64,000 nt of DNA from Escherichia coli (GTDB lineage Bacteria > Pseudomonadota > Gammaproteobacteria > Enterobacterales > Enterobacteriaceae), in assembly GCF_044324875.1 (NCBI RefSeq), contig NZ_CP172185.1. One strand, given 5' to 3'. A model generated the notes under the pieces. It was not told the origin of the DNA and searched no databases. It saw only the letters and a list, made by a program, of their open reading frames with translations. Below, piece by piece: positions 54,109 through 63,813 of the stretch (its first letter is position 1; the number at the start of each line of letters is the position of its first letter). The position numbers were made by a program, and so were the translations under genes.

Positions 54109-54816
<708 letters not shown>

Positions 54817-55037
54817 TACTTTCAGCCCGCGTTGTCGCGGGCTTCCCATCTGTAATCCTCCCTGATTCTTCTCTGATATGGTGCTAAAAAGTAACCAATA
54901 AATGGTATTTAAAATGCAAATTATCAGGCGTACCCTGAAACGGCTGGAATAAACCATTTTCAGCGCATTCACCGAAGGAGGGAAAAGGATGCTGCAAATC
55001 CCACAGAATTATATTCATACGCGCTCAACGCCTTTCT

Positions 55038-55045
55038 GGAATAAA
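55038..55045. repeat. Target-site duplication (GAATAAAC), left copy
   Basis: Identical 8 bp directly flanking both IS66 ends (55038-55045 and 57489-57496). Confidence 0.75.
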
Positions 55046-55083
55046 CGTAAGCGTACAGCGAGGGCCGTATTGACGGGGATGTG

Positions 55084-56622
55084 TTATTCAGCTGGCAGTG
55101 CTATGCGCCACGGAAGCAGTTCGCTGACCCGGTTGACCGGCCAGTCTGCTATGACGCCAAGCACATGGCGAAGGTAGCTTTCTGGATCCACGTCATTCAG
55201 TTTGCACGTCCCTATCAGGCTGTACAGTAGCGCTCCCCGCTCACCACCATGGCCAGAGCCGAAGAACAGGAAGTTTTTACGACCCAGACTTACCGCCCGC
55301 AGGGCATTTTCAGCGATGTTGTTGTCGATTTCCACCCAGCCATCGTTCGCATAGTACGTCAGTGCCGGCCACTGGTTAAGTGCGTACGCGAACGCCTTCG
55401 CCAACTCTGAGTGTCGCGACAGGGTCTTCATCTTTTCACGCAACCAGCTTTCCAGGGATTTCAACAGCGGTTTCGTTTTTCGCTGACGTTCAGCAAGCCG
55501 CTGCTCTGCCGGCATTCCCCTTATATCCGCCTCTATGGCGTACAACTGACCGATCTGCTCCAGGGCTTCTTCCGTCAGTGCTGACGGGATGCGGACGTGC
55601 ACATCGTGGATCTTTCGGCGGGCATGAGCCCAGCAGGCAGCTTCCGTTATCCCACCATTGCGATACAGCTCGTTGAACCCGGCGTACGCATCCGCTTGCA
55701 GCACACCGCTGAAGCAAGCAAGATGAGTCTGCGGATGGATGCCTTTTCTGTCCGGGCTGTAAGCGAACCACACTGCAGGTGCCAACGCTGACCCGGCATT
55801 GCGGTCATCACGAACATACGCCCACAACCGCCCGGTCTTCGTCTTCTTATTACCCGGCATCAGTACCTGGACCGGGGTATCATCGGCATGGAGTTTGCCG
55901 TCAGTCATGACATAGCCATGAAGCGCCTCTTCCAGCGGAGACAGCAGCCGGCAGCATGCATCCACCCAGCCCGACAGCAGTGAACGGCTCAGCTCCACAC
56001 CTTGCCGGCCGTATATTTCTGACTGGCGATACAGCGGGGTGTGCTCTGCATACTTCGAGGTCAGCACGCGGGCCAGCAGCCCCGGTCCGGCGATACCCCG
56101 CTCGATGGGCCGCGAAGGTGCAGGTGCCTGCACGATGGCATCGCACTGAGTACAGGCATGTTTTTCCCGTACCGTCCGGATAACCCGGAAGGCGCTACGC
56201 ATCAACTCCAGCTGTTCGGCGGTATCCTCGCCCAGATAGCTCAGTGAACCGCCGCAGTTCGGGCAGCACGGCGCCGCAGGCAACAGTCGCTTTTCGTCAC
56301 GGGGTAGTGATTCAGGGAACGGCTTACGGATGCGGGTCTGACGCAACGGACGCTGTACTGCCGGGTCATACACCCTACCAGTCAGCGTATCGCTCTCTTT
56401 CTGAAGCTGGTTCAGATCGGCTTCCATTTGTGCGATACGGCGGGAGACTTTTTCGGAACGACTGCCGAAGTTCATCCGGCGGAGTTTATCCAGCTGCGCC
56501 TGCAGATGGTCTATTTCGCGCTCCCGGTTGCTCAGCTTTTCCTGCAGGGCGTGGATCAGCGCTTCCTGTTCGGCCAGGCGCTGTTTCAGCAGGAAGATGT
56601 CGTCAGAAGAGATGTCGTTCAT
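55084..56622 (-). CDS. IS66-family transposase (TnpC/Orf3)
   Basis: 512 aa; leucine-zipper-like N-terminus, CPNCGG zinc motif and conserved DDE-type core typical of IS66 transposases. Confidence 0.88.
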
Positions 56623-56671
56623 AAGCCCGTATTTTACCGGGCTTATTCTGTGACAACCAGGATAAAGAGAT

Positions 56672-57019
56672 TTACAGCATGGTCAGGGAGGTCAGCAGCC
56701 GCTTAGGCTGTCGCCAGTCGATACCTTCCAGCAGCATCGCCAGCTGCGCCTGTGTAAGGAACACTTTGCCATCACGGGCTGACGGCCAGGCGAAGCGCCC
56801 ACGCTCCAGCCGTTTGGTCAGGAGGCACAGTCCGTCACCGGTGGACCACAGCAGTTTAACCTGACTGCCGCTGCGGCCCCGGAAAATGAAAACATGGCCG
56901 GACATGGGATCGTCTTTCAGCGCCGTCTGTACTTTCGCAGCCAGGCCGTTGAAGCCATTTCTCATATCGGTGATACCGGCAACCAGCCAAATTTTGGTCC
57001 CGGAAGGTAAAGGGATCAT
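56672..57019 (-). CDS. IS66 Orf2 (TnpB-named accessory protein; unrelated to IS605 TnpB)
   Basis: 115 aa beginning [31 protein letters not shown]; overlaps orf1 by 4 bp. Confidence 0.85.
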
Positions 57020-57417
57020 CGCTTCAGTTCCTGTATCAGCAGAGTCAGGAGCTTTTCGCTGACATTGCCATTGAAGCGGAGCGTCCCGTGCCGGAACGTT
57101 ACCTCACAGCTGATACTGAGGGTTTCCGGGTCCTCTGCGAGCGATTCTGGCTGTTCGGCAGCTGCATCGAGAGTCACAGGAAGTAGCTGGGGGCTCTCTG
57201 AAGAAGGTAATAGCAGCTTTCCCTCGCGCCATTGTTGTCGCCATTTGAACAACAGATTGGCGTTAATGCCATTTTCAAGAGCAAGTTTTGAGATGGATAT
57301 CCCGGGTTCACAGGAGGCAGCAACGAGCTGCTGTTTAAATTCGGGAGGATAATTAGGGCAGCCTTTTCGCCTGCCGGGAGTCACATTTTTCTGCATATCT
57401 GACACTTTGGTTCCCAC
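57016..57417 (-). CDS. IS66 Orf1 (TnpA-named accessory protein, helix-turn-helix)
   Basis: 133 aa; first ORF of the IS66 operon. Confidence 0.8.
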   Translation of the reverse strand: MGTKVSDMQKNVTPGRRKGCPNYPPEFKQQLVAASCEPGISISKLALENGINANLLFKWRQQWREGKLLLPSSESPQLLPVTLDAAAEQPESLAEDPETLSISCEVTFRHGTLRFNGNVSEKLLTLLIQELKR

Positions 57418-57488
57418 TACTTATTTGGTGGACACCACTTTGTCTAATTCGTCAGATTCTGACCAGACGGTTCAGGCTGTACGCTTAC

Positions 57489-57496
57489 GAATAAAC
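57489..57496. repeat. Target-site duplication (GAATAAAC), right copy
   Basis: See left copy. Confidence 0.75.
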
Positions 57497-57801
57497 AAAC
57501 TGCGCCTGCCGGAATATTCGAACGTCATCTTGATAAAGGAACGCGCCCGGGAGTTTACCCACGCCTTTCCGTTATGCATGGGGCGGTCAAATATCTCGGC
57601 TACCCTGATGAACACAGTGCAGAGCCTGATCAAGTGATCCTTATCGAAGCGGGGCAGTTTGCGGTGTTCCCTCCAGAAAAGTGGCACAACATTGAAGCCA
57701 TGACTGACGATACTTATTTCAACATTGACTTCTTCGTTGCTCCTGAAGTCCTGATGGAAGGCGCGCAACAACGGAAAGTCATTCATAACGGGAAATGAAT
57801 C

Positions 57802-57984
57802 ATGGGCAAAGCAACGTATACCGTGACCGTCACCAATAACAGCAATGGCGTTTCTGTCGATTATGAAACAGAGACGCCGATGACTTTGCTGGTGCCAGAA
57901 GTGGCGGCTGAAGTGATAAAAGATCTGGTGAATACCGTGCGTTCTTATGACACGGAAAACGAACATGATGTTTGTGGTTGGTAA
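57802..57984 (+). CDS. yoaG: Small protein YoaG (DUF1869)
   Basis: 60 aa ORF 3 bp after the yeaR stop; forms the yeaR-yoaG operon in K-12. Confidence 0.8.
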   Translation: MGKATYTVTVTNNSNGVSVDYETETPMTLLVPEVAAEVIKDLVNTVRSYDTENEHDVCGW

Positions 57985-63309: not shown

Positions 63310-63813
63310 TTACGCAGTGCGGCGGAAATTGACCAGTTCTGGTTGCGCAATGCGCAAATAATCCGCGGTTTTCAAAATAACGGATTTATCCAGCATGCCT
63401 GCATTGAAGGCGATTTCATCAAATCGTTCGAAGAGTAGGGGATCGGCAACCAGTTTGAGTTTTGGATGGAAGCTGAAAGGGGTGATCGCGCCGAAGACAC
63501 AGCCTGTGAGTTCATCGACTTCCGCCGGGCTGGCCAACGAAGCGCGTAATCCGCCTATATGGCTGGCGAGTTGGCTCAGATCGGCCTGTTGATCGGCCGC
63601 GAGGATCGCCAGAACATGTTGATTTACACCATTGCCTTTGACTTTACATACCAGTGCCTTAGCCCCCTGGCCTAAAGCGGTGCCACGAATTTCTGACACC
63701 GCTTCACATTTACCTACCGCTTCATGGGTAACGACGCGGAAGTCAGCACCTTCTTGTGATAATAAAGCGATTAACCGCTGATGCGTCACGCTTCCTTTAG
63801 CCATTTCAGTCAT
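63310..63813 (-). CDS. yeaK: YbaK/ProX-family aminoacyl-tRNA deacylase YeaK
   Basis: 167 aa; YbaK-like deacylase domain. Confidence 0.85.
   Translation of the reverse strand: MTEMAKGSVTHQRLIALLSQEGADFRVVTHEAVGKCEAVSEIRGTALGQGAKALVCKVKGNGVNQHVLAILAADQQADLSQLASHIGGLRASLASPAEVDELTGCVFGAITPFSFHPKLKLVADPLLFERFDEIAFNAGMLDKSVILKTADYLRIAQPELVNFRRTA

What the first reader, a model, noticed from the sequence alone, without database searches (positions are those of the whole stretch)
54897..54924. Candidate NsrR operator in the yeaR promoter region
AATAAATGGTATTTAAAATGCAAATTAT is an AT-rich partial palindrome resembling the NsrR site class (AAGATGCATTTAAAATACATCTT-like) and lies about 65-90 bp upstream of the yeaR start. 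If the promoter is intact it would now drive transcription into the IS66 element.
Basis: partly seen in the sequence, partly recalled or inferred. Interest (0 to 1): 0.25.

Follow-up and report, generated by a model that had tools for sequence, protein, structure and literature searches.

The report
Known NsrR operator of yeaR promoter
The flagged AT-rich palindrome is the already described nitric-oxide-repressor (NsrR) binding site inside the nitrate-activated yeaR promoter of E. coli, fully intact here, but the gene it controls has been split by an ISEc8 insertion sequence.

Summary
The 28-mer is present exactly as quoted. Its core, 54900-54922 (AAATGGTATTTAAAATGCAAATT), is letter-for-letter the 11-1-11 NsrR site published for yeaR in E. 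coli CFT073. A position-weight matrix built from the 25 other published sites scores it 22.6 bits. The next best hit in the 64-kb window scores 11.5 bits, and the per-position P is 1.2e-8.

The site overlaps the NarL 7-2-7 activator site (54892-54907, centred at -43.5) that was resolved by cryo-EM on this same promoter. It covers -43 to -21, including the weak -35 hexamer.

The NarL-to-(-10) block is identical to K-12 and to 90% of 5,417 E. coli records. An NsrR-type palindrome sits at the same place upstream of yeaR in all 26 Escherichia, Citrobacter, Salmonella and Silvania loci examined.

The only local peculiarity is a 2,442-bp ISEc8 (55047-57488, 8-bp target duplication) inserted after yeaR codon 19. 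No complete E. coli genome searched has this junction. The intact nitrate/NO-controlled promoter therefore fires antisense into the IS. Interest is low.

The parts
54900..54922 (.). NsrR operator, an 11-1-11 inverted repeat AAATGGTATTT-A-AAATGCAAATT, spanning -43 to -21 relative to the inferred start site
   Evidence: It is identical to the published yeaR site of CFT073. The leave-one-out matrix scores it 22.57 bits with P 1.2e-8. It is the top matrix hit at the same place in all 26 orthologous loci.
54892..54907 (.). NarL 7-2-7 activator site TAACCAATAAATGGTA, centred at -43.5; it overlaps the left NsrR half-site by 8 bp
   Evidence: The same 16-mer is named as the NarL site of the yeaR promoter in the cryo-EM study PMC10853779. 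Its coordinates were located.
54908..54913 (+). Weak -35 hexamer TTTAAA (inferred, 17-bp spacer), lying entirely inside the NsrR site
   Evidence: The position follows from NarL being centred at -43.5. PMC10853779 calls the -35 element 'intrinsically weak'. The consensus promoter scan finds nothing here, as expected for an activator-dependent promoter.
54931..54936 (+). -10 hexamer TACCCT (inferred)
   Evidence: The position is derived from the -43.5 anchor. The hexamer is conserved as TAaCCT or TACCCT across genera.
54943..54943 (+). Inferred transcription start (G)
   Evidence: The centre of the NarL site (54899/54900) plus 43.5 gives 54943. That base is G, consistent with the G-initiated transcript described in PMC10853779.
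54989..55046 (+). yeaR 5' fragment (codons 1-19 plus 1 nt). It continues as a 62-aa fusion ORF into the IS, ending at 55177.
   Evidence: The ORF list is, the K-12 YeaR translation and the junction mapping.
55039..55046 (.). Left copy of the 8-bp target-site duplication GAATAAAC
   Evidence: Junction comparison with the uninterrupted E. coli locus L001.
55047..57488 (-). ISEc8 (IS66 family), 2,442 bp. Its tnpA (57417-57016), tnpB (57019-56672) and tnpC (56622-55084) are on the minus strand. The terminal inverted repeats are 55047-55068 and 57467-57488.
   Evidence: It is 100% identical over 2,442 bp to elements annotated 'IS66-like element ISEc8 family transposase'. The inverted repeats are and the ORFs.
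57489..57496 (.). Right copy of the target-site duplication GAATAAAC
57497..57798 (+). yeaR 3' fragment, from within codon 20 to the stop codon
57802..57984 (+). yoaG, the second gene of the yeaR-yoaG operon, now 2.4 kb further from its promoter
   Evidence: The 60-aa ORF is and the annotation of the syntenic loci.
54178..54816 (+). leuE, the upstream neighbour that defines the 172-bp intergenic region

Best explanation
Bases 54900-54922 are the NsrR operator of the yeaR-yoaG promoter. NsrR is the [4Fe-4S] Rrf2-family repressor that is inactivated by nitric oxide. The operator spans -43 to -21. It covers the whole weak -35 hexamer, the upstream half of the spacer and the promoter-proximal heptamer of the NarL 7-2-7 site (54892-54907, centred at -43.5).

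The likely mechanism, which is inferred, is as follows. Holo-NsrR bound here blocks sigma region 4 from the -35 hexamer and competes with phospho-NarL. The promoter then fires only when nitrate or nitrite signalling supplies phospho-NarL and NO removes NsrR.

In this strain the control region is intact. ISEc8, however, has inserted after yeaR codon 19 in the opposite orientation. The regulated transcript now encodes a 62-aa YeaR'-IS fusion peptide and then runs antisense into tnpC. Expression of the yeaR 3' part and of yoaG from this promoter is probably lost through polarity (inferred).
For: Shown here:
- The 23-mer is identical to the published yeaR NsrR site.
- The leave-one-out matrix gives 22.57 bits against 11.47 for the next best hit in 64 kb. 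P is 1.2e-8, and each half-site scores about 11.2 bits.
- The 16-mer TAACCAATAAATGGTA is identical to the NarL site resolved on the yeaR promoter at -43.5. This fixes all positions.
- The region is identical to K-12 across 54892-54936, and 4,856 of 5,417 E. coli records are identical over these 45 bp.
- In all 26 orthologous yeaR loci from four genera, the best matrix hit of the whole 3.3-kb locus lies 73-84 bp upstream of the ATG. It scores 19-24 bits in 24 of them.
- In Silvania the NarL site and -10 region have diverged, but a better NsrR palindrome, AAGTCGCATTTTAAATGCATTTT (23.0 bits), sits at the same place.
- The outer TT and the ATG of the right half, which lie in the promoter spacer, are invariant or nearly so across genera.

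From the literature:
- yeaR is regulated by NsrR and NarL (Lin et al. 2007, as cited in PMC5320621 and PMC4959519).
- yeaR is induced 160-fold by nitrate in CFT073.
- The Salmonella homologue STM1808 and yoaG are listed in the NsrR regulon.

Against: - NsrR ChIP-seq in CFT073 did not give a peak at yeaR. The authors regard this as a false negative.
- I could not read the primary mapping paper (Lin et al. 2007) or Squire et al. 2009. The exact experimentally defined operator limits, and the start site, therefore rest on the -43.5 anchor given in PMC10853779.
- The whole NarL-to-(-10) block is conserved (0.80-0.91 majority fraction). Conservation within Escherichia and Citrobacter therefore does not separate NsrR constraint from promoter and NarL constraint.
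- The two Salmonella subspecies score only 14.1 and 9.7 bits.
- Nothing here shows that the source strain has a functional nsrR or narL, or that the promoter is transcribed.
Confidence: 0.9

Rival explanations
1. The palindrome is only the by-product of the NarL 7-2-7 site abutting an A+T-rich -35 hexamer, and the likeness to NsrR sites is coincidental.
For: Eight of the 23 bases belong to the NarL site, and six more form the -35 hexamer. Core-promoter conservation alone could explain much of the footprint. No NsrR ChIP-seq peak was seen at yeaR in CFT073.
Against: The right half-site lies outside the NarL site and scores 11.2 bits on its own. Spacer positions that match high-information NsrR positions are invariant across genera. 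Silvania keeps, and improves, the NsrR palindrome while its NarL site and -10 region diverge. NsrR-dependent regulation of yeaR is reported in the literature.
Confidence: 0.04
2. The A+T-rich element serves mainly as a Fis (nucleoid-associated protein) target that represses the promoter by competing with NarL.
For: Squire et al. 2009, known to me here only by its title as cited, reports that Fis-dependent repression competes with NarL activation at the yeaR promoter. The region is A+T-rich.
Against: I could not read the paper to place the Fis site. I found no clear G-N13-C Fis core by eye within 54897-54924. Fis binding would not explain the 22.6-bit match to the NsrR matrix. The two proteins may simply both act here.
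Confidence: 0.04
3. The sequence is a chance A+T-rich match with no function.
For: None beyond the general A+T-richness of intergenic DNA.
Against: Only 0.0008 matches are expected per 64 kb (0.014 with an A+T-rich background), and simulated maxima reach at most 16.8 bits. The site is conserved in position across four genera.
Confidence: 0.01

Closest known systems
NsrR operator of the E. coli K-12 / CFT073 yeaR-yoaG promoter (Lin, Bledsoe & Stewart 2007; Mehta et al. 2015, PMC5320621 Table 4)
   Same: The 23-mer is identical and lies at the same distance from the yeaR ATG. The flanking NarL site, -35 and -10 are also identical.
   Different: Nothing differs in the site itself. Downstream, yeaR is disrupted by ISEc8 in this strain, and none of 5,426 complete E. 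coli genomes shares that junction.
ytfE and hcp NsrR operators (the strongest 11-1-11 sites, AAGATGCATTTAAAATGCATCTT and AAGTTATATTTAATATACATGTT)
   Same: They share the 11-1-11 geometry, the central TTTAAAA core and the outer AA/TT.
   Different: The yeaR site is less symmetric (8 of 11) and scores 22.6 bits against 31.7 for ytfE and 26.2 for hcp. Its left half doubles as a NarL heptamer.
NarL-dependent, Fnr-independent promoters (yeaR, ogt)
   Same: A single 7-2-7 site centred at -43.5 abuts a weak -35 hexamer, as in the cryo-EM NarL transcription activation complex.
   Different: The ogt promoter needs two NarL sites, at -44.5 and -77.5. The papers read here describe no NsrR site at ogt.
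ISEc8 (IS66 family)
   Same: The element is 2,442 bp and 100% identical to annotated copies. It has the tnpA-tnpB-tnpC arrangement, GTAAGCG... terminal repeats and an 8-bp target duplication.
   Different: The insertion site inside yeaR was not seen in the complete genomes searched.

Membership tests
NsrR 11-1-11 operator class | [quoted passage not shown] | tested here: met
   The site scores 22.57 bits with the leave-one-out matrix. The 25 training sites score 11.7-31.7, so this site would rank about 6th. The two halves score 11.19 and 11.24 bits and are symmetric at 8 of 11 positions.
NsrR 11-1-11 operator class | Statistical excess over background | tested here: met
   P is 1.2e-8 per position. 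The next best hit in the window scores 11.47 bits, and simulated 64-kb maxima reach at most 16.8 bits.
NsrR 11-1-11 operator class | Placement within or overlapping the core promoter of the regulated gene | tested here: met
   The site spans -43 to -21 and covers the -35 hexamer, given the published NarL centre at -43.5. The start site itself was not seen in a primary source.
NsrR 11-1-11 operator class | Conservation at orthologous promoters | tested here: met
   It is the best matrix hit of every one of 26 yeaR loci at the same position. The score is 19-24 bits in 24 loci and weaker (14.1 and 9.7 bits) in two Salmonella subspecies.
NsrR 11-1-11 operator class | Direct NsrR binding, in vivo or in vitro | not testable with these tools
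   ChIP-seq in CFT073 gave no peak at yeaR, which the authors call a probable false negative.
NsrR 11-1-11 operator class | NsrR- and NO-dependent expression of the downstream gene | not testable with these tools
   This is reported in the literature for the identical promoter in K-12 and CFT073 and for Salmonella STM1808/yoaG. It has not been tested for this strain.
NarL 7-2-7 site | Inverted heptamer pair with 2-bp spacing that is bound by a NarL dimer | tested here: met
   The 16-mer is identical to the site modelled with a NarL dimer in the cryo-EM complex. A degenerate-consensus scan is uninformative: it gives 31 hits against 30.8 expected and misses this site, which has 4 mismatches.
ISEc8 / IS66 family | Full-length element with terminal inverted repeats, 8-bp target duplication and tnpA-tnpB-tnpC | tested here: met

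The most novel reading that the evidence does not exclude
An intact nitrate-activated, NO-derepressed promoter now fires antisense through all three ISEc8 genes. Nitrosative or nitrate conditions could therefore modulate ISEc8 transposase expression in this strain through transcriptional interference or antisense RNA. Alternatively, read-through could still deliver regulated yoaG expression. No strong intrinsic terminator was found on the + strand inside the IS, but Rho-dependent termination of the untranslated antisense RNA is the default expectation.
Probability: 0.1. Interest if true: 0.3.

Novelty: already known. Interest (0 to 1): 0.1.

Why it matters
The result confirms that a sequence-only reader correctly recognised a real, published regulatory site, so nothing new about NsrR follows from it. 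The local value is annotation. In this strain yeaR is a pseudogene split by ISEc8, while its dual nitrate/NO control region is untouched. yeaR is linked in UPEC to type 1 pilus levels, and its Salmonella homologue STM1808 is linked to virulence. The strain is therefore a natural yeaR knockout that may also be polar on yoaG. It also carries a conditional promoter aimed at an insertion sequence. The cross-genus comparison adds modest support that the NsrR site is selected independently of the NarL site.

Tried and rejected
- The sigma-70 consensus scan found no promoter in 54700-55200. I set this aside because PyeaR is activator-dependent with a weak -35 hexamer.
- The NarL degenerate-consensus scan (TACYYMTNNAKRRGTA, up to 3 mismatches) gave 31 hits against 30.8 expected and missed the true site. 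Consensus matching is not a usable test for NarL here, so identity to the structurally characterised 16-mer was used instead.
- I tried to read Lin et al. 2007, Squire et al. 2009 and Karlinsey et al. 2012. None is held, and the supplement of PMC10853779 with the scaffold sequence is not held either. The operator limits and the start site are therefore derived, not quoted.
- I looked for a Fis G-N13-C core inside the span by eye and found none that was convincing. This is not a formal test.
- I considered whether the insertion is a common lineage marker. None of 5,426 complete E. coli genomes covers the left junction, so the source strain or lineage could not be identified.
- The contrast between the 45-bp core and the adjacent 45 bp (4,856 against 249 identical records) partly reflects minority alleles in the window's upstream segment. 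It is only a crude indicator of constraint.

Full report
**Observation**

It lies in the 172-bp gap between leuE (54178-54816) and an ATG at 54989. That ATG opens MLQIPQNYIHTRSTPFWNK, the N-terminus of YeaR. BLAST against 5,426 complete E. coli genomes places the segment at leuE-yeaR in essentially all of them, and syntenic annotation confirms dmlA-dmlR-leuE-yeaR-yoaG-yeaQ.

**Is it more than chance?**

Table 4 of Mehta et al. 2015 (PMC5320621) lists 27 NsrR sites of the 11-1-11 inverted-repeat type in CFT073. The entry for yeaR is AAATGGTATTTAAAATGCAAATT (PatSer ln P -17.05). This is letter-for-letter window 54900-54922.

To avoid circularity I built a palindromic log-odds matrix from the other 25 distinct sites.
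- The window site scores 22.57 bits.
- The next best of about 64,000 positions scores 11.47 bits.
- The exact tail probability is 1.2e-8 per position, or 0.0008 expected per window (0.014 under a 64% A+T background).
- Thirty first-order-Markov simulated windows reached at most 16.8 bits.
- The two half-sites contribute equally (11.19 and 11.24 bits) and are symmetric at 8 of 11 positions.

**Anatomy of the promoter**

The cryo-EM study of the NarL transcription activation complex on the yeaR promoter (PMC10853779) names the NarL 7-2-7 site as TAACCAATAAATGGTA, centred at -43.5 just upstream of an intrinsically weak -35 element. That 16-mer is window 54892-54907. Anchoring on it gives the following positions:
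- the transcription start at 54943, a G, consistent with the G-initiated transcript of that study
- the -10 hexamer TACCCT at 54931-54936
- the -35 hexamer TTTAAA at 54908-54913
- the NsrR site at -43 to -21
- the yeaR ATG at +47

These positions are derived, not read from the primary mapping paper, which is not held. The generic sigma-70 scan finds no promoter here, as expected for an activator-dependent promoter.

The geometry suggests a mechanism, which is inferred. The NsrR site covers the entire -35 hexamer and 8 bp of the NarL site, including all of its promoter-proximal heptamer. Bound NsrR should therefore exclude both sigma region 4 and phospho-NarL. Expression would then need both nitrate or nitrite signalling and NO-mediated loss of NsrR binding.

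The literature agrees that yeaR-yoaG is controlled by NarL and NsrR (Lin et al. 2007 as cited). It also reports that yeaR and yoaG are among the most nitrate-induced genes in CFT073, at 160- and 168-fold. One contrary datum is that NsrR ChIP-seq gave no peak at yeaR in CFT073. The authors judged this a false negative.

**Integrity and conservation**

Over the 175-bp intergenic region the window differs from K-12 MG1655 at four positions: 54818, 54852, 54872 and 54956. All lie outside the NarL site, the NsrR site, the -35 and the -10. Seven divergent E. coli sequences are invariant from 54892 to 54933. Across the collection, the 45 bp at 54892-54936 are identical in 4,856 of 5,417 records and carry one mismatch in the other 561.

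A scan of species-representative genomes with K-12 YeaR returned 26 usable loci from Escherichia, Citrobacter, Salmonella and Silvania.
- In every one, the best matrix hit of the whole 3.3-kb locus lies 73-84 bp upstream of the yeaR ATG.
- It scores 19-24 bits in 24 loci, and 14.1 and 9.7 bits in S. enterica subsp. arizonae and diarizonae.
- In the alignment, sequence upstream of the NarL site is unalignable (majority fraction 0.47), whereas the NarL-to-(-10) block is conserved (0.80-0.91).
- That block conservation cannot by itself separate NsrR constraint from promoter constraint. Two details can.
- First, the spacer positions matching the high-information ATG and outer TT of the NsrR right half are invariant or nearly so.
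- Second, in Silvania the NarL site and -10 region have diverged, yet a more perfect NsrR palindrome, AAGTCGCATTTTAAATGCATTTT (23.0 bits), occupies the same place.

**The insertion**

Comparison with an uninterrupted locus shows that collinearity ends after 55046 and resumes at 57489. The 8-bp sequence GAATAAAC is duplicated at 55039-55046 and 57489-57496. The intervening 2,442 bp have 22-bp imperfect terminal inverted repeats beginning GTAAGCGTACAGC. They are 100% identical to elements annotated as ISEc8 of the IS66 family. The element's tnpA, tnpB and tnpC lie on the minus strand.

The insertion follows yeaR codon 19, at about +105. It creates a 62-aa fusion ORF (54989-55177) and leaves the yeaR 3' part (57497-57798) and yoaG (57802-57984) 2.4 kb downstream. 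No record among 5,426 complete E. coli genomes spans the junction.

Transcripts from PyeaR would be antisense to tnpC, tnpB and tnpA. On the + strand inside the IS, the scan finds only one weak terminator-like hairpin, at 57316-57332. Once translation stops at 55177, however, Rho-dependent polarity is the expected outcome (inference).

**Comparison with what is known, and verdict**

This is the known NsrR operator of the known NarL-activated yeaR-yoaG promoter, unchanged. The membership features that can be tested in silico are all met: motif geometry and score, statistical excess, core-promoter placement and orthologous conservation. Direct binding and NsrR-dependent expression cannot be tested with these tools and rest on the literature.

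Rival readings are a NarL/-35 by-product, a Fis target and chance. The first and the last are disfavoured by the independent right half-site, the Silvania case and the statistics. Fis may well act here in addition (title of Squire et al. 2009), but I could not place its site.

The finding is correct but not novel, and interest is low. The most novel reading the evidence does not exclude is nitrate/NO-conditional antisense transcription of ISEc8, or read-through to yoaG. I rate that as unlikely to matter (about 0.1).

Noticed in passing
window 55039-57496: The ISEc8 insertion after yeaR codon 19, with GAATAAAC duplicated, is not present in any of 5,426 complete RefSeq E. coli genomes (0 records cover the junction). 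The same IS at 100% identity is common elsewhere, at up to 46 places per genome.
   Followed up: partly
window 54915; L035 (E. coli O157:H7 F8797) position 84: A natural T-to-A variant in the NsrR right half-site (AAATGCA to AAAAGCA) lowers the matrix score from 22.6 to 18.7 bits. Citrobacter sp. Awk4 carries the same substitution. In all, 561 of 5,417 E. coli records have one mismatch somewhere in the 45-bp core; another example is C54935T in the -10 hexamer (L036).
   Followed up: partly
L013, L021, L030 (C. sedlakii, Citrobacter MAG, C. amalonaticus AUH), about 1400-1431: In these lineages the NarL site and left NsrR half read TGCCCCTTTTGGTGTATTT instead of TAACCAATAAATGGTATTT. This is a wholesale replacement that still scores about 21 bits for NsrR and still loosely resembles a 7-2-7 pair.
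   Followed up: no
L022, L024 (Salmonella enterica subsp. arizonae and diarizonae), about 1410-1432: The Salmonella sites (AAATGGTATTTGAAATGCTGTTT and AAATGGTATTTAAGATGCTGTTT) score only 14.1 and 9.7 bits, although STM1808/yoaG are listed as NsrR-regulon genes. The right half-site has drifted.
   Followed up: no
L034 (234-bp contig in an Alkalicoccobacillus porphyridii assembly, coverage 0.8): A tiny, low-coverage contig encodes a 95% match to E. coli YeaR residues 38-77. This is almost certainly enterobacterial contamination of a Bacillales assembly.
   Followed up: no
window 63715-63730: TACCGCTTCATGGGTA matches the NarL 7-2-7 degenerate consensus with 1 mismatch, the best match in the window. 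It lies inside a 167-aa ORF on the minus strand (63310-63813) and is probably a chance match.
   Followed up: partly
window about 57604-57606 (yeaR 3' fragment): The disrupted YeaR reads LGYPDEH where K-12 has LGYADEH (Ala to Pro). This could be an ordinary polymorphism or a change acquired after inactivation.
   Followed up: no
window 54820-54845: The GC-rich hairpin CAGCCCGCGTTGTCGCGGGCT lies just after the leuE stop codon and looks like the leuE terminator. The terminator scan did not call it because it lacks a T-run. It insulates PyeaR from leuE read-through only if it is functional.
   Followed up: no
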